From: Methanoregula sp.
GTDB lineage: Archaea; Halobacteriota; Methanomicrobia; Methanomicrobiales; Methanospirillaceae
Assembly: GCA_028679075.1 (NCBI GenBank)
Contig: JAJRCF010000011.1
Span: 9,217-73,216 of the forward strand
DNA length: 64,000 nucleotides
Reading direction: 5' to 3'
Part shown: positions 13,549 through 63,998 of the stretch, in pieces
Numbering within the stretch: the first letter of the stretch is position 1
How the letters are laid out: every line of letters begins with the position of its first letter
Notes under the pieces: model-generated
What the model saw: only the letters and a program-made list of their open reading frames with translations
Database searches by the model: none
What the model was told of the DNA's origin: nothing
Made by a program: the position numbers and the translations under genes

Positions 13549-14493
13549 ATGAATATGAAACGAATTCTTGTTACCGGAGCAAACGGATTTATCGGTTCCC
13601 GTCTTGTGAAGAAACTACTTGACCGTGGTTATGATGTAGGTATACTAGTACGCGAATCTTCCGATCTCAGATCTATTGACACGATTCTTGATCGAATCAG
13701 CGTATTTCGTGGTGATATCCGGAATTGTGAGGACGTATCCGATACAGTAGTGAAATTTATTCCTGACGTTGTCATGCATCTTGTGACATACTATGCAGTG
13801 GAACATTCCTCTTCGGAAGTAAATGTCATGGTGGAAACAAATGTCATGGGGACGATCAACCTGCTGGAAGCTGCACGGATGAATAAGGTAAAACTTTTTA
13901 TAAATACCAGTACCTGTGCAGTTTATGAACAGCAGGACCGGGCATTATCTGAACAAGATCCCGTCAGCCCCCAGAATCTCTATGCGTTGACTAAACTCCA
14001 GGCAGAAGAAGCATGCAGGTTTTATGCTCTCAACTATAGTGTCGACGGAATCACACTAAGATTGTTTCCTCCCTACGGACCGGGTGATCATGAACGGCGA
14101 CTAATTCCCTATCTCATCCATGCATTCTCAACGAATCAAACCCCCCAGATAACATCGGGTGAGCAGAAATGGGATTTTATCTTTGTCGATGATATTGTCG
14201 ATGCATATATCGCAGTCCTCACAACATACCCTTTTAGGGAACGCTATGATGTGATTAATATTGGGACGGGAAACCCCCGAAGCGTCAGGCAGATTGTTCA
14301 ATCCATTATGAAGCTGATGAACAAAGATATTGAATTGTCCTGGGGTGTACTCCCCCACCGAAAGAATGAATTGTGGTATAATTCATCCGATAATAAAAAA
14401 GCAGAAGATCTCCTCGGCTGGAAACCAGTTACCGATATCCATGATGGGCTTCGTATGACAATAGAATATTTTTCACAGGAAAGGAATGTATAA
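13549..14493 (+). CDS. NAD-dependent epimerase/4-ketoreductase (CDP-abequose/paratose-synthase-like SDR)
   Basis: TGANGFIG, YALTK, LRLFPPYGPGD and WDFIFVDD. Confidence 0.75.
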   Translation: MNMKRILVTGANGFIGSRLVKKLLDRGYDVGILVRESSDLRSIDTILDRISVFRGDIRNCEDVSDTVVKFIPDVVMHLVTYYAVEHSSSEVNVMVETNVMGTINLLEAARMNKVKLFINTSTCAVYEQQDRALSEQDPVSPQNLYALTKLQAEEACRFYALNYSVDGITLRLFPPYGPGDHERRLIPYLIHAFSTNQTPQITSGEQKWDFIFVDDIVDAYIAVLTTYPFRERYDVINIGTGNPRSVRQIVQSIMKLMNKDIELSWGVLPHRKNELWYNSSDNKKAEDLLGWKPVTDIHDGLRMTIEYFSQERNV

Positions 14494-14495
14494 TC

Positions 14496-15548
14496 GTGGC
14501 TATAGTATCTGAAACCCCTTCAAATCAGGTGTCTCCATGGCATGGTCCCCTTGTCTCCATATGTATTCCCACTTATAACCGGGCAGATCTGATTACGACT
14601 GCCATTGAGAGCGCCTTAAGCCAGTCATATCGCAATATTGAGGTCCTTGTTGTGGACAATGCATCAACAGATTCAACGAATAAAGTAATTGCCCGTTATA
14701 ATGATGAACGGCTTCGTTATGTAAAAAACGAGAAAAACCTTGGCCTTTTCGGAAATTTTAATCGTTGTATTGAACTTGCCGGTGGTAAGTATATTCATAT
14801 TCTTCATTCGGATGATTGTATAGACCGGAAATTCACGGAGACCTGCGTTGATTTTTTAGAGGCCCATCCTGATGTAGCCATGACATTTGGTTCAGTTGAG
14901 CCATTCGTCAACAGCGGCGAGAGAAAAAATCGTCAATCGTCACCTCCGGTTATTTACCCGGTGCCCGAGGGATTCAGGAAAACACTGGAAGCCCGTAATT
15001 TCATAAGCTGCCCGACGGTTATGATGCGCAAGGACGTGTATGATTCTTATGGATATTATTCGCTTGAATATCCATATTCCGGAGATTTCTATCATTGGCT
15101 TCGTATTACCCGGCACTTCTCTGTGGCGTCCGTCCCGGATGCCAGACTCTATTACCGTACCGGTGATCATTCGGAGTCTTTCCTGCTGTTGTTTAAAACA
15201 CCCCTGGGATATATCGATATGATAAAGATCTATGTTCGTATCATCGATGAACTGGGTGAAGATCGGAGATTCTACCAGCGTGAACTTAACGCTGCATGTC
15301 AGCGACATATGCGTGATTGCCTGTTTGCAGGTATTGCCCGATATGAATCCATGACCGGGTATTCCTCCCTGATCTTTATTGGTTTTGCATTAAGCATGTG
15401 GTCCCTTATGAAACCCCAGTCAGTATCAGAGTGGATAAATAAAACCGGGAATTTTTTCCTGATTAGCGCAATAGCCTGTTTAACACTCGTTCCCGGGGGG
15501 CAATACATAACGAGAAAAATTTTCAGACTCGATACGAAAGGCTACTAA
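14496..15548 (+). CDS. Glycosyltransferase family 2 (GT-A)
   Basis: VSICIPTYNR, VVDNASTD and ILHSDD (DxD); hydrophobic C-terminus. Confidence 0.93.
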   Translation: MAIVSETPSNQVSPWHGPLVSICIPTYNRADLITTAIESALSQSYRNIEVLVVDNASTDSTNKVIARYNDERLRYVKNEKNLGLFGNFNRCIELAGGKYIHILHSDDCIDRKFTETCVDFLEAHPDVAMTFGSVEPFVNSGERKNRQSSPPVIYPVPEGFRKTLEARNFISCPTVMMRKDVYDSYGYYSLEYPYSGDFYHWLRITRHFSVASVPDARLYYRTGDHSESFLLLFKTPLGYIDMIKIYVRIIDELGEDRRFYQRELNAACQRHMRDCLFAGIARYESMTGYSSLIFIGFALSMWSLMKPQSVSEWINKTGNFFLISAIACLTLVPGGQYITRKIFRLDTKGY

Positions 15549-51216: not shown

Positions 51217-52551
51217 ATGGATGTCGAGGAGTATGCCCGCAGGGGACTCGCAGAAGGTACTGAAGAAAAAACCCTGCAGGAAAAGCTGGCTGATCACATT
51301 GTCCGGATGAAAAATGCCAGCCCCTCCTATGCATCAGCGTTCGCCCGCGCCGTTATTGAAGAAGTGAAGAACACTCAAGGGTTGTCCGGCGACTTTTTTA
51401 CCTTTGAACCGGCCGGCGTCCGGATGGGCGAGTTCGGCGTGGGTTCCCGGGGAAAAGGGGATTTTTTTGCCCACCGCCAGATCGCCCGCATCATCGGGAA
51501 GACGTCTGCCTCCGTTGGTGTTGACGAGATGGACGATGCCGGTGCGGTCTGTGCCGGGGGAAAATACATCATTTGCACGGTCGACGGGATGCACTCGCGC
51601 CTTTCGGATTTTCCGTACCTTGCCGGTTTCCACGTGACCCGCGCAACGCTCCGTGACGCGTACGTGATGGGGGCAAAACCGATCATGCTCTTCTCGGATA
51701 TCCACGTTGCCGATGACGGCGATGTGGCAAAGATCTTTGATTATACCGCAGGTATCACGACCGTTGGCGAGGCAATGGACGTGCCGCTTGTCACCGGATC
51801 GACCCTGCGCATTGGTGGCGACATGGTGCTTGGCAGCCGGCTCACCGGGTGTGTCGGTGCCGTGGGCGTGGCCGAACACCTGACTGCCCGGAAGTCCACG
51901 CAGCCGGGGGATGTCCTCCTGATGACGGAAGGTGCCGGGGGCGGGACGATTGCGACAGCCGCGATCTATTCAGGGTTCCCGGAAGTTGTCGAAGAAACAA
52001 TCAACCTGAATTTCCTCATGGCCTGCGAGGCGCTGATGAAGAGCAGCGTCTTTACGCAGATCCACGCGATGACGGATGTGACGAACGGGGGGCTCCGCGG
52101 CGATGCGTTCGAGATGGCCGAGACTGCCGGCTGCCGGATCGTCATTGACGAGTCAGATATCGGCAGCCTGGTCCAGTCCCAGGTGAAGGAGATGCTCGAA
52201 GCGCTGAAGATTGATTACCTTGGCGTTTCGCTTGACTCCCTGCTCGTGGTTGCACCGGCCGGAGCTGCCGATGAGATCTGCCGCGTGATCCGGTCGGCCG
52301 GTGTCACGATGAAGCAGGTCGGGCACGTGGAAGAGGGGAAGCCGGAAGCGGTGCTCCGTGCCGGTGGTAAAGACCATGACTTCTCGCCCCGGTTCCGTGA
52401 ATCCGCGTACACTCCGGTGAAGAAGGTGGCGGATACGGAGATGCGTGACTTTGAGGAGATGAAAGCGGGAGTGGTGCGTGCCTCTGAAGCGGCGATACAG
52501 AAAAAGCAGCGGGTGCTGAGCCGGCTGCGGGCCGGGAAGGGCGGGTTTTAA
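51217..52551 (+). CDS. AIR-synthase-related protein (PurM/HypE/SelD superfamily)
   Basis: MGEFGVGSRG-x-GDF, DDAG, VDGMHSRLS, HAMTDVTNGG-x-RGD and LGVSLDSL. Confidence 0.8.
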   Translation: MDVEEYARRGLAEGTEEKTLQEKLADHIVRMKNASPSYASAFARAVIEEVKNTQGLSGDFFTFEPAGVRMGEFGVGSRGKGDFFAHRQIARIIGKTSASVGVDEMDDAGAVCAGGKYIICTVDGMHSRLSDFPYLAGFHVTRATLRDAYVMGAKPIMLFSDIHVADDGDVAKIFDYTAGITTVGEAMDVPLVTGSTLRIGGDMVLGSRLTGCVGAVGVAEHLTARKSTQPGDVLLMTEGAGGGTIATAAIYSGFPEVVEETINLNFLMACEALMKSSVFTQIHAMTDVTNGGLRGDAFEMAETAGCRIVIDESDIGSLVQSQVKEMLEALKIDYLGVSLDSLLVVAPAGAADEICRVIRSAGVTMKQVGHVEEGKPEAVLRAGGKDHDFSPRFRESAYTPVKKVADTEMRDFEEMKAGVVRASEAAIQKKQRVLSRLRAGKGGF

Positions 52552-52637
52552 AAAATATTTTTTGGGCCACGTGCGAAAAAAATTTTTGTGAACGTAAATT
52601 TTTTTAGAAATTTTTTGATACAGTGCCTGCTCTCACA

Positions 52638-52910
52638 ATTTATTTTTCCTGAGGAGTAAGGGGTCTCATGAATTATTTTTGATGAGGGGGTAGGGGGGTC
52701 ACGCAAATTTTTTAATGAGGGGTACCCCCCCTCAGTAAAAATTTTTCGTGAGGGTCTGCCCCTGTTTTCGAAACGGTTTACGACGGGACGCTGTGTTTTT
52801 GCGTGGGGAAAATCGTGAGGGGTAGGGGATGTGAGCGAAAAAATCTGATGAGGGGAGTGGGGGCTCAGGCAAATATTCTGGTGAGGGGTCGGGGGGATTG
52901 GAAACCCTGT
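52638..52910 (+). repeat. Degenerate 33-bp tandem array (A/T-tract followed by TGAGGGGTAGGGG)
   Basis: TGAGG at 52650, 52683, 52716, 52749, 52816, 52849 and 52882; one degenerate slot near 52782. Confidence 0.85.
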
Positions 52911-52982
52911 CCCACACCGGTATACGACGGAATCCAGCCCCGTAACCTCCTCTTAGATAGTGCAGATCCGGACTCATGCAAA

Positions 52983-53078
52983 ATACCTGTCACAGGTCAC
53001 TGACCTGTCCGATGCACCTGACCTGTCACGGGTCAGATACCTGTGACAGGTCAACTGACCCGTATTAGGGAGCCCTAA
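52983..53078. repeat. Palindromic 9-bp lattice of TGACCTGT sites followed by TTAGGG-AG-CCCTAA
   Basis: Eight TGACCTGT-like cores in alternating orientation; palindrome centres at 52991, 53000, 53027, 53045 and about 53054. Confidence 0.88.
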
Positions 53079-53615
53079 AACTGCGATCCAAAACAGGGGT
53101 TCTTTTCGGTTTCCAGGACCATAGCCTGTTTGAAAAACGATCGGCCATCCAATTGCGTCTATTAGCCTATATTATATTCTTCGACGGAGAAAATCCAATC
53201 CGGGCCCGTATCGGGTGGGAAAATCTCCTTATTGTATCGTTTTTTGGGAATTAGACACGTTTGAGTGGGGTCAGGCTGGTTCCCCGTTATCGGTCTCCGA
53301 CGGTGAGTGGAGTTTGTGAGAGGGTATCTTCCCGGGAGTATTCCGGAAGGATGATCTCCGACGTGAAATTTGCTTTTACGTCAGGGATGATCTTACAGGC
53401 CCCCTGTTTGTGAAAAACCACGAATGTGTTTCTGACAGTGGGGGATGTTTTAGTGGGTGGAGTGTTGGGGGTGTGGGATGAGTGGACCGGAATATTTTCC
53501 GGGCCGGGAAATTTTTTGTAAAAAAGATTTAGGAAAAAAATCTAAAAAAAATTTAGAGAAAATTTCTCAATGGAAAATTTATTGAACCGTGCTAGGTTGT
53601 ATTGATCATGAAAAT

Positions 53616-53725
53616 TGTGATGAACGGCCGCCGCCCCGAAGGGCGCCCCGCGGCGGATCAGTGACGAAAAGCAAAATACTCATTGCCCCGCCGCGCCTCG
53701 GAGAGGCCCTGAGGCGGGAGGCCTC
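53616..53725. repeat. Structured GC-rich dispersed repeat, copy 1
   Basis: CCCCGCGGCGGATCA (53646-53660) and TGCCCCGCCGCGCCTCGGAGAGGCCCTGAGGCGGG (53684-53718) are shared with copy 2. Confidence 0.85.
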
Positions 53726-53794
53726 ACAATTTTTTATGGTTTCGGTGTGAACTTGATCTGTTGATACCCGTTTCCGCAGGGTTAAAATTCCCGG

Positions 53795-54523
53795 TTATTC
53801 CCGGGGCTTCTTAGCACTCACAAAAATATTATACGCCAGTTGCGGCACCCGCTTCTCGACAAACGGCTCGATCTTGCTGGCAAGGTTGTACAGCGGGTCG
53901 ATCATGTCGATGTGGGCAAACGAGCACCACTTGACCGCAATGTCCGAGAACCCGGCCTGGTTGAACAGGTCGTTCATCTCGTCTTCATTGTAATAATGCT
54001 CGCCGAAATCCTTCATGACCACGTGCCTGACATTCATCTTCTCGCTGATCTGGTACAGTGCCGGGATGCCCCGGGTCAGGAGTTTTTTCCCAAGCGTGCA
54101 GATCGCAATCGCACCCCCGGGCCGCAGCACGCGATACGACTCCGACAACATCGTCTCCGGGTCCCTGACATAACTGAACACCAGCAGGCTGGAGACGGCA
54201 TCGAACGAATTGTTGCGGAACGGTAACGTCTCGCCATTCCCCTCGGCAAACTCACACCCGGCGCAACGGTGGCGCGCCCGTGCGGTCATCTTCCGGCTGA
54301 TATCGAGGCCGACCGCGGTCCCCCCGTGGCGGAGATACTTCTCGACAAAGAGACCTGTCCCGCACCCGATATCGAGGAGGTCGCCCTTTTCCGGCAGGGC
54401 TTTGATGAGATAATTGCTGATGTGGGTGTGGTAGTTCCGGCCGCGGGGATGATCGTAGTGGTGGTCGTACGTATCCGCAACGCTGTCATAATGGTCGCGG
54501 ATCTTCTCCTGCCTGACGGTCAC
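53795..54523 (-). CDS. Class I SAM-dependent methyltransferase (UbiE-like)
   Basis: LLDIGCGTG, GLDIS, LPFRNNSFDAV and RVLRPGG. Confidence 0.9.
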   Translation of the reverse strand: MTVRQEKIRDHYDSVADTYDHHYDHPRGRNYHTHISNYLIKALPEKGDLLDIGCGTGLFVEKYLRHGGTAVGLDISRKMTARARHRCAGCEFAEGNGETLPFRNNSFDAVSSLLVFSYVRDPETMLSESYRVLRPGGAIAICTLGKKLLTRGIPALYQISEKMNVRHVVMKDFGEHYYNEDEMNDLFNQAGFSDIAVKWCSFAHIDMIDPLYNLASKIEPFVEKRVPQLAYNIFVSAKKPRE

Positions 54524-55515
54524 GGGAAGGTCTCCTGTATTCCTGCGGTGAGTGCGCCGATCTGGATGTATTCGTTATTTGCATGCCGCATCCGGTATTC
54601 GGCATCGGCAAGGGCGATAGCAAGTGCAGGATGGTTGTACTCACGTTTCAGGACTTTCCTGATCTCGGAGAGGACCTCGCTGCCGGAAAGGCCGGAATCG
54701 ATCATCAGGGATTCGAGGCGACGGGTCGCGACCCGGACATCCCCTTCCTTGAGCGCGGCAATGGCCGATGTGGCAATGTTCCCGGTCTCTGACTGCGAAA
54801 TGGCAAACAGGTCCTGGCATTTCCCGGTCTCGAACGCGACCTGCGTGAGGAGGATCGCACGCCGCATATCGCCCGCGGAGGCCTGCACGATCAGGTCAAG
54901 GTCATCATCGGAACAGGTTGTGTTCTCCGGGTTCTCCCGGTCCTTGATCATCCGGAGATGCGAAAGCACGATCCCCTGATCGACCGGGGCAAAGAACAAC
55001 GGCAGGCAGCGCGATGTGATCGCCGGGATGATCGCGCTCTGGTTCGTTGTCGTGAAGATGAAGCGGCAGGTGTTGCTGGTCTGCTCCATGATCCGGCGCA
55101 GTGCCTGCTGGGCATCGCGGGTCAGGGTATGCGCATCCTCAAAGACCAGGAGCTTGAACTCTGCATCAAGCGGGCGCAGCGAGGCATACCACCTGATGAT
55201 GTACTTGAAATTCGTGATCAGGGACTGGCTCTTCTGGTACAGGTGGGTGTACCGCTCGTCCTGTTCGAGCAGGGCTTTTCCCTGGAGGAAGATGTCCGCG
55301 GTCTGGAACACGGTGGTGTTCTGTTCCCAGTTCTCCCCGTACAGTTCCTTTGCAAAGCATTCGATCGCAATGCTCTTCCCGGTGCCGTGCGGCCCCGAAA
55401 GGATCAGGTGAGGTACGTTCTTGGAGCCGGCAAACGAGGTGAGGTGGCGCATGACTGCGTCCTGTCCCAGGATCTCCTGTGATGAAGACGGCCGGTATTT
55501 TTCAGTCCAGAGCAT
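54520..55515 (-). CDS. rfcS: Replication factor C small subunit (divergent S2-type paralog)
   Basis: WTEKYRP, PHLILSGPHGTGKS, AQQALRRIME and ITSRC; Walker B reads FEDAH. Confidence 0.88.
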   Translation of the reverse strand: MLWTEKYRPSSSQEILGQDAVMRHLTSFAGSKNVPHLILSGPHGTGKSIAIECFAKELYGENWEQNTTVFQTADIFLQGKALLEQDERYTHLYQKSQSLITNFKYIIRWYASLRPLDAEFKLLVFEDAHTLTRDAQQALRRIMEQTSNTCRFIFTTTNQSAIIPAITSRCLPLFFAPVDQGIVLSHLRMIKDRENPENTTCSDDDLDLIVQASAGDMRRAILLTQVAFETGKCQDLFAISQSETGNIATSAIAALKEGDVRVATRRLESLMIDSGLSGSEVLSEIRKVLKREYNHPALAIALADAEYRMRHANNEYIQIGALTAGIQETFP

Positions 55516-56233
55516 GGGACAACCTCACTGTCATCTCACGTATTGCCTCTGACAAAAGATAATGATTATCGGTTGCGGAGAGGAGCCGTTCCCGGTCCGC
55601 GGCCGACAGTTCCCGGCACGCCCGGGTGATCTCCGGCAGCGCCCGGGTCAGTTCATCGACAATGGTGAGGGTCGCCCGTTGTGCCGTGCGGGACAGCGGG
55701 TTGAGGTCGACTGCAATCACCTTCTTTCCCATGGCAACCAGCGCCTCGCACCGGTCGCCGTCTTCTAAGGGAACGATGATGACATCGGCAGAGAACATTC
55801 CCTCCCTCCGGCACCACGCGCGGTCGTGGGAGAGGGGGAGCAACCGTTCGGCCTCACCGGAAAATACATCTGCCCCGGCATCCCGCAGGAGTTTCTCGAT
55901 CCGGGCAACGCGGTCTTCGGTCCGGTGGAAAAGGTTCACTTCCACGAGTGCCCCGGATGCTTTCTGCAGTTCGGCAATTTCATGTGCAGCGAGGGCTGCC
56001 GTATTCCCGTTAACCGAGATGACCGGGCGTTGGGCAGTCATCAGCATTGCCGCGGCGGTCTGTTCTGCAAGGAGTGCACTTGGTGTCGTCCGTTCCCCAA
56101 TCAGGTAGTCAAAGGCCTCGCCCCGCCCGTGGGCAGTAAGGCCTTCCATTGCCACGATCCCCGATCTGGCACATTCCGCAAGGCGCTCGCGGGTGACGAG
56201 CGAGCGGTAGCGTGGGTGATCGGGCGGTATCAT
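55502..56233 (-). CDS. pps: 4-phosphopantoate--beta-alanine ligase (phosphopantothenate synthetase)
   Basis: IPPDHPRYRSL, AHGRGEAFDYL, SVNGN, VPLEDGDR and DLNPLSRT. Confidence 0.93.
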   Translation of the reverse strand: MIPPDHPRYRSLVTRERLAECARSGIVAMEGLTAHGRGEAFDYLIGERTTPSALLAEQTAAAMLMTAQRPVISVNGNTAALAAHEIAELQKASGALVEVNLFHRTEDRVARIEKLLRDAGADVFSGEAERLLPLSHDRAWCRREGMFSADVIIVPLEDGDRCEALVAMGKKVIAVDLNPLSRTAQRATLTIVDELTRALPEITRACRELSAADRERLLSATDNHYLLSEAIREMTVRLSHALD

Positions 56234-57096
56234 GGTCTCTCCCCGGTGATGCGTGCGCCGGTCCGGGCCACGGCACATTCGTACACCTCGCCGAACTTCG
56301 CGAGGAGATCCCGGGCATCGCGGCCGTACGCGAATACGCCATTTCCGAGCATGGTCATGCTTGCGGGAATACCATGGGCCCCGCAGTGCTGGATGACCTC
56401 CCGGACTTGGCGGGTAACGAGCCCGCTGGCAACAGCAAACTCCTGTGAGATCCGGAAGAGATCGTCAATGTTTTTTGGCGACCTGCGGGGAAATGCGGAG
56501 GAGACTCGTTCCATCTGCTGCTGCGAGCCTAAGACTGACGGGGTGTGGATGGGCCCGAAACTTACTGCATATACGGATCCGGTCAGATCATACCGTCGCT
56601 GGATTGTGGCGTCGATACCCGGCCCTTTCCGGACAACCCAGCCCCCGCTCTGGCATGCGGCAACGTCCCCAAGACCGGTCCGGTGCATGACCTCTGCTTC
56701 ATGGGCAAGCAGGGCGATATCATGGGCGGTCAGGTCCAGGCCGTATAACCTGTCAAGGGCAGTCAGCGTGGCAAGCAGGGCTGCTGCCGAAAGCCCGAAC
56801 CCGGCGCCTATCGGGAGGTGGCATTCCGTGACCACCGATGCGGTGACGCCAAGCCGTTCCATGACCGATGAGAGCAGGGGGGAATCGCCCGCGTATTCGC
56901 TTCTCGTGCCGTTTGCATCCACGCGGTCCACGCGGATGGATGTCCTCCCGGCTTTTGTTACGGTGGCAGCAACACCTTTGTCAATGACAATCCCTGCACC
57001 AATGCTCCCGGTATCCGCTCTTGTCGTACCATTGACGCGTTTGAAATAGCCGGATATATGGCCGGGGCAAAAAGCGGTAACCGTTCCAGGTCTCAT
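56230..57096 (-). CDS. pok: Pantoate kinase (GHMP family)
   Basis: FCPGHISGYF, GSIGAG, PIGAGFGLSAA, AHEAEV-x3-TGLGDV and SMTMLGNGVF. Confidence 0.93.
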   Translation of the reverse strand: MRPGTVTAFCPGHISGYFKRVNGTTRADTGSIGAGIVIDKGVAATVTKAGRTSIRVDRVDANGTRSEYAGDSPLLSSVMERLGVTASVVTECHLPIGAGFGLSAAALLATLTALDRLYGLDLTAHDIALLAHEAEVMHRTGLGDVAACQSGGWVVRKGPGIDATIQRRYDLTGSVYAVSFGPIHTPSVLGSQQQMERVSSAFPRRSPKNIDDLFRISQEFAVASGLVTRQVREVIQHCGAHGIPASMTMLGNGVFAYGRDARDLLAKFGEVYECAVARTGARITGERP

Positions 57097-57225: not shown

Positions 57226-57392
57226 ATGATTAACGCCGCCGCAGTCGAAGAATCCTCATGGATTCTTCTCTAGTCAATCCTCGCTGATGCGACGATTGCC
57301 TCCCCGCGGCGGATCAATTACCGTAATAATGATAAGAGATAAAACCGCCATGCCCCGCCGTGCCTCGGAGAGGCCCTGAGGCGGGGAGCTCT
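57226..57392. repeat. Structured GC-rich dispersed repeat, copy 2 (with extra internal hairpins)
   Basis: CCCCGCGGCGGATCA (57302-57316), a 35-nt motif at 57351-57385 (34/35 identical to copy 1), and the hairpin GAAGAATCC-TCAT-GGATTCTTC (57247-57268). Confidence 0.85.
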
Positions 57393-57475
57393 CGTATCAA
57401 ATTAGCATATTTTGGTTTTCTTGGCTCCAGTACGAACCATCAGCATTACGAGATTTAAAAAATAGCCATAATCCC

Positions 57476-62078: not shown

Positions 62079-63998
62079 CTAGATCAACTGGATGATACCG
62101 GACTTTGGTTCCATTGCTTCCCCGTGCCGGAGGAGCATGTCGATCCCGTCTTTCACTTTGTCCCGCGGGAATCCCTTTGCGCTGACCGCATCGATCACCT
62201 GGTCGATACCCGCACGGCGTCCTTCGCCGCCGATATCGCGGATCGCGTCCTTGATGACCCGCACGATGTCGCGTTTCTCTTTGGAGATGCCGGTTACGAC
62301 CTTGTCGATATCGAAGGTGCCGGTCTTCGCATCATATGCGATCTGCCGCAGGCAGGCATCAACGATATGGATAACGCGTTCTGCGTCGCTCAGCTCGATC
62401 TTATCCGAAAGCCGGATACGCGCACTTGCCTCGGCAAGCCGGACAAGCGCTTCGAGTTGCCGGGCCGTCACCGGCACCGGCTTGTTGGGTTCCGCGATAC
62501 CCCTGAGTTTTAAGTAATACCCGACAAGCGCTTCCCGGGATTCTGCCGAGAGCATCGGGAAGCAGGAGCGTTTGGCATATGCCACGTATTTTCTGAAGAG
62601 CCCGGGATCGATATCCGGCATGACCGGCGCGAGCTGCTGCTGGATGTACTCGTCCGTGACGCCGGGTATGGGCGTCTTCCTGTGCTGCGCGATCAGTTCC
62701 CCGGTACTGTGCGCCTTGAGGATGTGTTCTGCGATAGCGAGGTCCCGTTTCTGCTCCGGCTGGTCGGTCATGATGAAGATCAGGTCAAACCGGGAGAGCA
62801 GCGACGGGGGCATGTTGATCTGGTCGGAGATGTCCCCGAACATATCGAACCGGCCGTACTTCGGGTTTGCTGCGCCAAGCAGGGCGCACCGCGATTTGAG
62901 GGTGGCCGTGATCCCGGCCTTCGCAACGCTGATCGACTGCTGCTCCATTGCCTCGTGGAGGGCGGAACGGTCACCCTTCTCCATCTTGTCCATCTCATCG
63001 ACTGCGGCGACACCCATATCGGCAAGCACCAGCGCACCGGCTTCGAGCGTCCAGCGGCCTTCCCCGAATTCGTCTTTCACCGCGGTTGCGGTCAGGCCCG
63101 CGGCAGTCGAGGACTGTCCGCTCGTATAGATCGCACGGGGGGAGAGTTTGACAACGTACCGCAGCAACTGGCTTTTTGCAATACCCGGGTCACCGATCAG
63201 GAGGACATGGATATCGCCCCTGAGACGGCTGCCATCCGGCATCTCCTTTGCGATCCCGCCGAACAACTGGAGGGCAATTGCCTGCTTCACGTCCTCGCTC
63301 CCGTAAATGGTCGGGGCAATCGAGTGGGTGATCATCCGGTAGATCATCGGGTCCCTGCTCAGGCGCTGGATCTCGTCTTCGGCCTTCTCGTCGATCTCGA
63401 CCTCCTCGAATTCCTTCTCCGCGACCTCGATGGAATTGCATTCAAGGAAGATATCGAAGACCGTGCTCTTCTCGCCCTTGACGATCCGCTGCATCGAGCG
63501 CAGGATGCCATTGATAATGACGCGGTCGCCCGGGGAAACTTTACCGGAGAGGTCATCGGTCACATCGATATCCAGTGTCTGCGGCTGTTCGCCCCCGCGC
63601 AGGCCTTCCGGGGACTCCTGGATCCTCAGTTTCTGGGAGTCCACGAACTTCGACCGCTTGGGCATGAGCTCGAGCTTCTTGAACGTACAGCCATCGGTGG
63701 CACAACCCTCAGGCTCGATAAATTTCCCGTACTTCTGCTGTTTTAACGTAAAATGGCCGGCAGGGCAGCGGAACACGGCATCGACAATGCGTGGCCGGAC
63801 TTCCGTGGTCTTTCTGAGGATGCCCTCTACGGAAACGAAACGGTTGATGTCATCCGACCGGATATAGCGGATACCGGTCTTTTTCGGGAGATTGGTGAAC
63901 CGTATGTTGATGCCTTTTGGTTCTTTGCTATCCTTGGTCCGTATCAACTGGCTGTTTTTTATTGCGTCCCAGACATCCTCGAGGACCTTCCCGGGATT
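62079..63998 (-). CDS. mcm: MCM replicative helicase (N-terminus outside the window; no intein in the visible part)
   Basis: Frame is open to the window edge (NPGKVLEDVWDAI). Zn finger, IGDPGIAKSQ, GALVLAD, VDEMDKM, EAMEQQ, SRFD and TARQLE motifs. Confidence 0.97.
   Translation of the reverse strand, partial: NPGKVLEDVWDAIKNSQLIRTKDSKEPKGINIRFTNLPKKTGIRYIRSDDINRFVSVEGILRKTTEVRPRIVDAVFRCPAGHFTLKQQKYGKFIEPEGCATDGCTFKKLELMPKRSKFVDSQKLRIQESPEGLRGGEQPQTLDIDVTDDLSGKVSPGDRVIINGILRSMQRIVKGEKSTVFDIFLECNSIEVAEKEFEEVEIDEKAEDEIQRLSRDPMIYRMITHSIAPTIYGSEDVKQAIALQLFGGIAKEMPDGSRLRGDIHVLLIGDPGIAKSQLLRYVVKLSPRAIYTSGQSSTAAGLTATAVKDEFGEGRWTLEAGALVLADMGVAAVDEMDKMEKGDRSALHEAMEQQSISVAKAGITATLKSRCALLGAANPKYGRFDMFGDISDQINMPPSLLSRFDLIFIMTDQPEQKRDLAIAEHILKAHSTGELIAQHRKTPIPGVTDEYIQQQLAPVMPDIDPGLFRKYVAYAKRSCFPMLSAESREALVGYYLKLRGIAEPNKPVPVTARQLEALVRLAEASARIRLSDKIELSDAERVIHIVDACLRQIAYDAKTGTFDIDKVVTGISKEKRDIVRVIKDAIRDIGGEGRRAGIDQVIDAVSAKGFPRDKVKDGIDMLLRHGEAMEPKSGIIQLI

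What the first reader, a model, noticed from the sequence alone, without database searches (positions are those of the whole stretch)
52552..53794. 1.24-kb gene-free block built from several independent sequence lattices: candidate origin, centromere-like site or non-autonomous element
Seen: it lies between convergent genes in an otherwise dense region. In order it holds A/T tracts, a 33-bp G-string array, a 9-bp palindrome lattice, an AT-rich core (about 53150-53250), a G/T-skewed arm, A-tracts and a structured repeat. No credible ORF is present. Known: archaeal origins and partition sites combine iterated protein-binding boxes with an AT-rich unwinding element, but canonical ORBs and an adjacent cdc6 are absent here. 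rfcS is about 0.7 kb away and mcm about 8 kb. Inference: a multi-protein DNA-binding platform of unknown type.
Basis: partly seen in the sequence, partly recalled or inferred. Interest (0 to 1): 0.78.

Follow-up and report, generated by a model that had tools for sequence, protein, structure and literature searches.

The report
Patchwork of dispersed repeats between genes
The 1.24-kb gene-free block in this Methanoregula genome is not a replication origin. It is a fast-changing pile-up of several small non-coding repeat families, copies of which lie elsewhere in the genome, wedged between two genes that almost touch in most related species.

Summary
The described features are real. The organism is a Methanoregula, known only from a metagenome-assembled genome.

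**What the block is made of**
- A 33-bp G-string array (module A): 4 copies in the genome.
- A palindrome lattice (module B): 4 copies.
- A 110-bp piece that ends in a T-run (module C): 2 copies.
- A GC-rich hairpin element (module D): at least 11 copies.
- About 220 bp of unique sequence and an A-tract minisatellite.

**Evidence against an origin or centromere**
- In 9 Methanoregula species the same convergent gene pair is only 6-28 bp apart. The spacer is 226-579 bp in 8 species, about 1 kb in one, 1.24 kb here and about 1.8 kb in the closest relative.
- This genome differs from that closest relative by discrete gains and losses of repeat units and small hairpin elements.
- Substitutions run at the synonymous rate, even inside the G-string boxes.
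- A canonical origin lies on another contig: three ORB boxes around an AT-rich stretch, next to orc1/cdc6.

**Verdict**
The block is an accreted mosaic of non-autonomous repeats, analogous to BIME, BOX or MIRU elements. Its T-rich edges probably terminate transcription of the two flanking genes.

Earlier notes of this scan describe other mosaic repeat families in other Methanoregula genomes. They share no sequence with this block.

The parts
51217..52551 (+). Left flanking gene, AIR-synthase-related protein (AIRS and AIRS_C domains). Not part of the block.
   Evidence: Pfam. Syntenic with the methyltransferase across the genus.
52552..52640 (+). Cluster of T5-T7 runs directly after the AIRS stop codon. 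Probably oligo-T terminators for the AIRS transcript (inferred). It is also the low-complexity 5' part of the extended module A.
   Evidence: Sequence. GC 0.28. The extended A match 52546-52899 aligns to C36:1687-2030 and L011:1386-1722. The 6-28-bp spacers of relatives are also T- and A-runs.
52641..52912 (+). Module A: about nine 33-bp units, each an A/T tract followed by TGAGGGG-N2-3-GGGGGG-yTCA. One unit is a perfect hairpin version, TGAGGGGTACCCCCCCTCA. The two middle units are degenerate. It is a dispersed family of 4 copies in this genome.
   Evidence: Box spacing. Other copies at C36:1781-2018, C36:4378-4610 and C38:5761-5985. Consensus from 42 units. Alignments.
52920..53108 (+). Module B: a conserved leader (CTCTTAGATAGTGCAGATCCGG), four 18-bp units carrying 17-bp palindromes (52983-53063), a small hairpin TTAGGGAGCCCTAA, and a tail. 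It is a dispersed family of 4 copies.
   Evidence: Copies at C36:1222-1467 (90-95% identity), C1:13538-13693 (88%) and C10:48562-48673 (85%), all reverse-complemented. The hairpin fold has z = -4.1 on the + strand and -4.4 on the - strand.
53140..53250 (+). Module C: a 110-bp unit that ends in GTTTTTT. There is a second copy in the glnA/amt region. In G019:C2 and in one metagenome contig, B and C occur together as a unit of about 400 bp (52906-53308).
   Evidence: C2:40881-40986. L011 912-1314 at 81% over 406 bp. L067. No hairpin is conserved among the four copies.
53300..53518 (+). Unique part of the block, including the G/T-skewed arm (53400-53480). Found only in the syntenic block of the closest relative.
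   Evidence: nhmmer finds no other copy. About 88-90% identical to G019. Skew.
53519..53566 (+). A-tract minisatellite with an 11/24-bp period. On the - strand it reads as T6-T8 runs, 230-275 nt downstream of the methyltransferase stop. Probably terminators for that gene (inferred).
   Evidence: TRF. Repeat D7. G019 carries about 118 bp more of it.
53612..53735 (+). Module D: a GC-rich double-hairpin element closed by 9-bp inverted ends, AAATTGTGA and TCACAATTT, and followed by T6. Its 3' hairpin (D2, 53684-53725) is a dispersed family of at least 11 copies. This is the oldest layer of the block.
   Evidence: Fold. D2 copies, one of them at window 57351-57398. D pieces are present at the same site in G053, G041, G048 and G022.
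53795..54523 (-). Right flanking gene, SAM-dependent methyltransferase. Not part of the block.
   Evidence: Pfam. Found in 38 of 41 genomes of the genus.

Best explanation
The block is an accreted mosaic of small non-coding, non-autonomous repeat elements. It has built up in a permissive spot, the gap between two convergent core genes.

The original spacer was a few T- and A-runs that act as a two-way terminator. Over time it received, in this order:
1. GC-rich hairpin elements (module D), shared with more distant species.
2. A 33-bp G-string array (module A), shared with two relatives and inverted in one of them.
3. A palindrome-lattice element with its attached piece (modules B and C), shared only with the closest relative.

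The tandem parts then grow and shrink by slippage or unequal exchange, and further small hairpin elements drop in or out.

As a whole the block does nothing specific. Its T-rich left edge and A-rich right part probably still terminate the two flanking transcripts.

Shown: the dispersal of the pieces, absence of the block from most relatives, change by insertion and deletion, a neutral substitution rate, and a canonical origin elsewhere.

Inferred: how the pieces spread (transposition or recombination) and the terminator role.
For: (1) The pieces have other copies in the same genome: A 4, B 4, C 2, D2 11. All copies are intergenic, and several lie between convergent genes.

(2) The AIRS-methyltransferase spacer is 6-28 bp in 9 Methanoregula species and 226-579 bp in 8. 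It is 992 bp in G053, 1243 bp here and about 1.8 kb in G019.

(3) The layers have different ages. D pieces occur at this site in G041, G048, G022 and G053. A occurs in G053 (inverted) and G019. B and C occur in G019 only.

(4) Module A is rare in the genus. It was found in 2 of 41 relatives searched, and beyond those only in a handful of metagenome contigs. It was never found on viral contigs.

(5) The alignment with the syntenic G019 block differs by discrete events:
- one extra 33-bp unit;
- a 72-bp (4 x 18) loss in the lattice;
- a 57-bp hairpin element;
- 118 bp more A-tract repeat;
- a 320-bp hairpin patch.

(6) Substitution rates in three orthologous pairs of A arrays are 13.3% at box positions and 16.6% at spacers. 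Four-fold degenerate sites of the flanking genes diverge by 14.4%. None of these differences is significant.

(7) A and B+C are joined in different relative orientations at different loci.

(8) Other intergenic regions of G019 are similar patchworks of repeats.
Against: - No transposase, target-site duplication or clean element-level empty site was found. Only the C1 copy of B has crisp 10-bp inverted ends (TCTCCGACGG).
- Copy numbers are low for a selfish element.
- Three of the four A copies sit at orthologous sites in G019, so there has been little recent movement.
- The unit motif of A stays recognisable in G053 despite about 35-40% overall divergence. This needs either concerted evolution or selection.
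- A 66-bp stretch in the middle of A is 97% identical to G019. That is above the neutral 85%.
- Transcription could not be examined.
Confidence: 0.68

Rival explanations
1. The block is a cluster of small non-coding RNA genes. B, C and D would each be a short transcription unit on the + strand, running from a TATA-like box to an oligo-T run, and the repeat families would be sRNA gene families.
For: - B starts with CTTAGATAG and C with TATTAGCC. Both resemble the TTTATTAG(AT) boxes upstream of this genome's tRNA genes.
- The similarity among C copies stops exactly at GTTTTTT.
- D ends in T6 and B in TTCTTTTCGG.
- B and D fold much better than shuffled sequence, with z = -3.6 to -4.4.
- One arm-to-arm C/G swap between copies of B keeps the hairpin.
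Against: - No Rfam family matches beyond chance hairpin hits.
- Both strands fold equally well, as expected of DNA palindromes.
- C has no hairpin conserved among its four copies.
- G019 has lost 72 bp of the B hairpin at the orthologous site.
- Substitution rates are neutral.
Confidence: 0.15
2. The block is a functional protein-binding platform, either centromere-like or nucleoid-organising. Dimeric proteins would bind the TGAG-N11-CTCA boxes, phased every 33 bp with A/T tracts, and the 17-bp TGACCTGT-N-ACAGGTCA palindromes. Together they would form a wrapped nucleoprotein complex.
For: - The 33-bp phasing is strict, about three helical turns, with an A/T tract in every unit.
- The outer TGA...TCA half-sites are kept in both the G-G and the G-C versions of the unit.
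- An array has stayed at this site in three species.
- Tandem units that each contain an inverted repeat resemble the F-plasmid sopC centromere (my own knowledge).
Against: - There are four arrays in the genome, at unrelated loci.
- No parA/parB-like or other candidate binding gene lies next to any copy.
- Box positions are not more conserved than spacers or synonymous sites.
- The unit number and the orientation vary between close relatives.
- The array was not found in most of the genus.
Confidence: 0.12
3. The block is a secondary or captured replication origin, with iterated initiator boxes and an AT-rich unwinding element.
For: - Iterated boxes with G-strings lie next to AT-rich tracts.
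- The replication genes rfcS and mcm are nearby.
- Archaea can have several origins, some captured from extrachromosomal elements (my own knowledge).
Against: - A canonical origin exists at C18:14343-15167. It has three ORB boxes (CCCCTTTGTTTCGTGTGGAA), two direct and one inverted, around a very AT-rich stretch. It lies next to an orc1/cdc6 gene.
- No such box occurs in the window even with 3 mismatches allowed.
- No initiator gene is nearby; the second cdc6 is on contig C3.
- The site is 6-28 bp long in many species.
- The pieces occur at several other places in the genome.
- The 'AT-rich core' has GC 0.40-0.42.
- Cumulative GC skew shows no turning point beyond the local G excess.
Confidence: 0.03

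Closest known systems
BIMEs (bacterial interspersed mosaic elements built from REP sequences) of enterobacteria and pseudomonads
   Same: Both are extragenic mosaics that combine several short repeated motifs. Both often lie between convergent genes, have hairpin-forming units in regularly spaced clusters, and vary in composition between copies and strains. The definitions of BIME and REP are taken from the abstracts of PMC2817692 and PMC3733652.
   Different: - This is an archaeon; the tagged REP families are described for bacterial phyla.
- Copy numbers are 4-11, not above 100.
- The array units all point the same way instead of alternating.
- Most units are G-G direct rather than palindromic.
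- The units carry no GTAG or CGTC tag.
- No RAYT transposase was identified.
BOX elements of Streptococcus pneumoniae and MIRU-VNTR loci of Mycobacterium tuberculosis (from my own knowledge)
   Same: These are dispersed intergenic modules that contain a tandemly repeated sub-unit whose number differs between copies and strains. Here the 33-bp unit, the 18-bp unit and the 11-bp A-tract unit all vary in number between this genome and G019.
   Different: There is no sequence relationship. The unit lengths and motifs differ. The organism is an archaeal host, and far fewer loci are involved.
MITE carrying an internal minisatellite (Porphyromonas gingivalis, PMC4596501, seen)
   Same: A non-coding dispersed element that contains a tandem array. 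Module D has 9-bp inverted ends, and one B copy has 10-bp inverted ends.
   Different: No target-site duplications, no parent insertion sequence, and no consistent terminal inverted repeats for A or for most B copies.
Archaeal oriC (ORB or mini-ORB boxes with a G-string, an AT-rich unwinding element, adjacent orc1/cdc6)
   Same: Iterated boxes that include G-runs next to A/T tracts.
   Different: This genome's own ORB consensus is absent from the block. There is no adjacent initiator gene. The site is not conserved. The genuine origin-type locus is on contig C18.
Mosaic interspersed repeats noted earlier in this scan in other Methanoregula genomes (e1-4312593, e1-4312595)
   Same: Same genus and same kind of object: non-coding modular repeats in intergenic regions, with expanded tandem arrays and palindromes. 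Those notes also judged them BIME- or BOX-like rather than origins.
   Different: Sequence look-ups found no shared words with those stretches. These are therefore different families.

Membership tests
Archaeal chromosomal replication origin (oriC) | ORB or mini-ORB initiator boxes | tested here: not met
   The genome's own ORB, CCCCTTTGTTTCGTGTGGAA, has 3 copies at C18:14414, 14598 and 14800. It has no match in the window with up to 3 mismatches.
Archaeal chromosomal replication origin (oriC) | Adjacent orc1/cdc6 initiator gene | tested here: not met
   The flanking genes encode an AIRS-like protein, a methyltransferase, RFC small subunit, CoA-pathway enzymes and MCM. The Cdc6 homologues are at C18:13050-14342 and C3:57345-58469.
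Archaeal chromosomal replication origin (oriC) | Conserved at the same position in related genomes | tested here: not met
   The spacer is 6-28 bp in 9 species of the genus.
Archaeal chromosomal replication origin (oriC) | Initiation of replication at the site | not testable with these tools
   This needs marker-frequency analysis or 2D gels. GC skew is uninformative.
REP/BIME | Imperfect palindromes of 20-40 bp tagged with GTAG or CGTC | tested here: not met
   The consensus of 42 units is TGAGGGG-N-GGGGGG-TCA. Only one unit per array is a palindrome, and none carries a GTAG or CGTC tag. The criteria are from PMC3733652.
REP/BIME | High copy number, with alternating orientation inside clusters | tested here: not met
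   There are 4 arrays of 6-9 co-oriented units. The assembly is 90% complete, so the counts are lower bounds.
REP/BIME | Cognate RAYT (IS200-like Y1 transposase) | not tested
   The genome search closed before a family search could be run.
MITE | Terminal inverted repeats | tested here: inconclusive
   Module D is closed by AAATTGTGA and TCACAATTT. The C1 copy of B is bounded by inverted TCTCCGACGG. The other B copies and module A lack clear inverted ends.
MITE | Target-site duplication and filled-versus-empty sites | tested here: inconclusive
   - The whole block is absent from 9 species.
- A 57-bp hairpin element is present in G019 and absent here.
- No duplication could be defined.
- The attempt at the atpD locus failed because synteny is broken there.
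Dispersed modular repeat with a variable-number tandem sub-unit (BOX- or MIRU-like) | Several intergenic copies, with the number of internal tandem units varying between copies or strains | tested here: met
   Copies. Relative to G019: one 33-bp unit more or less, four 18-bp units fewer, and about 118 bp more A-tract repeat.
Plasmid-type partition centromere (sopC/parC-like) | Adjacent parA/parB-type genes and one site per replicon | tested here: not met
   No such genes lie beside any copy. There are four arrays in the genome.

The most novel reading that the evidence does not exclude
The 33-bp array may be a functional element of a kind not described in archaea, not merely selfish DNA. It would be a phased set of TGAG-N11-CTCA sites, flanked by A/T tracts, that a dimeric protein wraps. 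Alternatively, pairs of units might fold into long-loop G-quadruplexes on the G-rich strand. Either way it would be kept at a few fixed chromosomal sites in a Methanoregula lineage, for example to organise the nucleoid, block transcription between converging genes or pause replication. Support for this reading: the array has persisted at the same spacer in three species with its unit motif intact, and a 66-bp core is 97% identical to the closest relative.
Probability: 0.12. Interest if true: 0.6.

Novelty: new member of a known kind. Interest (0 to 1): 0.3.

Why it matters
- It removes a false origin or centromere candidate and points to the likely true oriC of this genome (contig C18, next to orc1/cdc6).
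- It adds to the evidence that Methanoregula genomes carry undescribed mosaic families of intergenic repeats. Such repeats are well studied in bacteria (REP/BIME, BOX, MIRU) and hardly at all in methanogens.
- They break assemblies and create variable-number loci that could be used for strain typing.
- They may supply terminators or binding sites.
- How they spread in an archaeon, with no obvious transposase, is an open question.

Tried and rejected
- **Rfam:** an E-value scan over 51500-55000 gave only sub-threshold microRNA-type hits on the palindrome. Rejected as generic hairpin matches.
- **tRNA/tmRNA:** none in the block.
- **Small ORFs:** eight candidates, none with a credible Pfam match.
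- **Viral contigs:** three pattern scans for the A and B cores found nothing. There is therefore no support for a viral or satellite origin.
- **GC skew:** computed over contigs C11 and C18. It follows the local G-strings and gene orientation, so it is uninformative.
- **Parent insertion sequence:** self-megablast found no high-identity multi-copy element in this fragmented assembly.
- **Empty-site test for the C10 copy of B:** tried through AtpD homologues. The gene downstream of atpD differs in every relative fetched, so no exact empty site could be defined.
- **TCTCCGACGG as a general element end:** the motif is only about twofold enriched genome-wide, so this was dropped.
- **C/D-box sRNA reading of the array units:** rejected, because the would-be C box is not conserved among the 42 units.
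- **Conserved RNA fold for module C:** rejected, because the four copies form different or no hairpins.

Full report
**Setting**

The window is G000:C11:9217-73216 of a 2.5-Mb, 40-contig assembly that is 90% complete. Matching public contigs name the closest relative as Methanoregula sp. SO_2017_LW4 bin 75. The repeat-bearing contigs C36 and C38 are identical in length to two JGI metagenome contigs. The organism is therefore a Methanoregula known from a metagenome-assembled genome.

The block 52552-53794 lies between convergent genes:
- an AIR-synthase-related gene (51217-52551, +);
- a SAM methyltransferase (53795-54523, -);
- beyond that, RFC small subunit (54520-55515, -) and, 8.3 kb away, MCM (62079-63947, -).

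**Observation**

- Seven TGAGG(G/A) boxes are spaced 33, 33, 33, 67, 33 and 33 bp. In 33-bp register the array has about nine units, the two middle ones degenerate.
- The palindrome lattice has an 18-bp period with 17-bp palindromes.
- The G/T-skewed arm, the A-tract minisatellite and the GC-rich structured element are confirmed.
- No small ORF has a credible domain.
- There is no tRNA in the block and no Rfam family above noise.
- By a crude ORF map this is the second-longest ORF-free gap in the assembly.
- The 'AT-rich core' is only mildly AT-rich, at GC 0.40-0.42. The really AT-rich parts are the two edges, at GC 0.28-0.29.

**The block is a mosaic of dispersed repeats**

BLAST and nhmmer against the organism's own genome split the block into modules.

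| Module | Window coordinates | Other copies in the genome |
|---|---|---|
| A (G-string array) | 52641-52912; extended match 52546-52899 | C36 (two copies), C38 |
| B (palindrome lattice) | 52920-53108 | C36, C1, C10, all reverse-complemented, 85-95% identical |
| C | 53140-53250 | C2, in the glnA/amt region |
| D2 (3' hairpin of the GC-rich element) | 53684-53725 | 11 hits, one at window 57351-57398 |
| unique part | 53300-53518 | none |

All copies are intergenic, and several lie between convergent genes.

A and B+C are neighbours at two independent loci, but in different relative orientation. In the window the order is A, then B, then C, all on the + strand. In C36, in its G019 orthologue and in metagenome contig L067, C and B are reverse-complemented upstream of A.

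**The site is not conserved**

The methyltransferase and AIRS genes are convergent neighbours across the genus, but the spacer varies widely.

| Spacer length | Genomes |
|---|---|
| 6-28 bp (runs of T and A) | 9 species |
| 226-579 bp | 8 species |
| 992 bp | G053 |
| 1243 bp | this genome |
| about 1.8 kb | G019 |

The layers have different ages.
- D-type hairpins occur at this site in G041, G048, G022 and G053.
- An A array is present in G053 but inverted relative to the flanks.
- B and C are shared only with G019.
- Module A was found by DNA search in only 2 of 41 relatives.
- Its core hairpin word recovered only this lineage plus a few metagenome contigs. It was never found on viral contigs.

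**Mode of change**

The alignment with the syntenic G019 block differs by discrete events:
- one additional 33-bp unit;
- loss of 72 bp (4 x 18) of the palindrome lattice between direct ACAGGTCA words;
- a 57-bp hairpin element;
- about 118 bp more A-tract repeat;
- a 320-bp patch of small hairpins right after the AIRS stop codon.

Four-fold degenerate sites of the flanking genes are 85-86% identical between the two genomes. The block as a whole aligns at 68-80%.

In three orthologous pairs of A arrays, box positions diverge by 13.3% and spacers by 16.6%, against 14.4% at four-fold sites. None of these differences is significant. So there is no detectable purifying selection on the boxes at this time depth.

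One exception is a 66-bp stretch in the degenerate middle of A, which is 97% identical. It remains unexplained.

**A canonical origin lies elsewhere**

Two Cdc6/Orc1 homologues exist, at C18:13050-14342 and C3:57345-58469. Upstream of the C18 gene lies an 825-bp spacer. It holds three ORB-type boxes (CCCCTTTGTTTCGTGTGGAA), two direct and one inverted. They surround a strongly AT-rich stretch. No such box occurs in the window. GC skew is uninformative.

**What the pieces might do**

The 42 units collected from all copies give the consensus aaaTTATTTTgc-TGAGGGG-N2-3-GGGGGG-yTCA.
- The outer TGA...TCA words form an inverted repeat whichever inner run follows, which would suit a dimeric binder.
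- Each unit also carries a T5-6 run, the archaeal termination signal (my own knowledge).
- Single units flanked by T-runs occur in more distant Methanoregula contigs.

The left edge of the block has eight T5+ runs within 200 nt of the AIRS stop. The A-tract minisatellite gives T6-T8 runs on the minus strand downstream of the methyltransferase. A terminator role for the edges is therefore plausible, though inferred.

B and C begin with boxes that resemble this genome's tRNA promoters, and they end at T-runs. This keeps an sRNA reading alive. Against it:
- both strands fold equally well;
- C has no conserved hairpin;
- G019 has lost most of the B hairpin.

**Comparison with known systems**

The closest analogues are bacterial BIME/REP mosaics, BOX and MIRU-type modular repeats, and MITEs with internal minisatellites. 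Membership of REP/BIME fails on the tag, the copy number and the orientation pattern. MITE membership is inconclusive: D and one B copy have inverted ends, but no target-site duplication was found.

Earlier notes of this scan describe other mosaic repeat families in other Methanoregula genomes (e1-4312593, e1-4312595). They share no sequence with this block.

**Limits**

I therefore obtained no transcription, coverage or population data, and I ran no RAYT search. An empty-site test at the atpD locus failed because synteny is broken there.

**Verdict**

The origin and centromere readings are not supported. The block is best read as an accreted, near-neutrally evolving mosaic of non-autonomous intergenic repeats with probable terminator edges. 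It is a new member of a known kind and of modest interest.

Noticed in passing
outside the window: G000:C18:14343-15167: Likely true oriC. It has three ORB boxes (CCCCTTTGTTTCGTGTGGAA), two direct at 14414 and 14598 and one inverted at 14800. They lie around a very AT-rich stretch, directly upstream of an orc1/cdc6 gene (C18:13050-14342). The same spacer also holds GGGGGTCGGGTGGTGTAC-type repeats with up to 9 other copies in the genome.
   Followed up: partly
outside the window: G000:C36:1680-4730 (L005, L002, L059): Two co-oriented copies of the 33-bp array bracket a low-GC 2.4-kb segment. The segment encodes a TBP paralogue, a 105-aa ORF with no Pfam match and a DUF1016/YhcG PDDEXK nuclease. 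In G019 the same genes are arranged differently. It might be a small island bounded by the arrays.
   Followed up: partly
window 57351-57398 (C11:66567-66614): A second copy of the D2 hairpin in the same window, between the GHMP-kinase and CoaBC genes. It belongs to the family of at least 11 members.
   Followed up: partly
genome-wide; for example L010 1030-1350 and C36:1283-1334: A further family of small hairpins built on GAAGAACGC...GCGTTCTTC. The 9-mer occurs 106 times in the genome against about 20 expected. One copy sits as a 52-bp insert in the centre of the C36 palindrome lattice. Others nest inside D2 in G041 and G053.
   Followed up: no
L049 1182-2226 (G019, NZ_JALOCH010000010.1): About 1 kb of intergenic DNA next to another A array. 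It is a patchwork of at least eight repeat families that match many contigs of this genome, so such mosaics are common in this lineage.
   Followed up: no
window 52745-52810: The degenerate middle of the array (TGAGGGTCTGCCCCTGTTTTCGAAACGGTTTACGACGGGACGCTGTGTTTTTGCGTGGGG) is 97% identical to G019, while four-fold sites are 85% identical. It is the one piece of the block that looks constrained or recently converted.
   Followed up: no
window 55826-57049 (+): A 407-aa ORF with no Pfam match overlaps the GHMP-kinase and PPS_PS genes on the opposite strand. It is probably a spurious antisense ORF.
   Followed up: no
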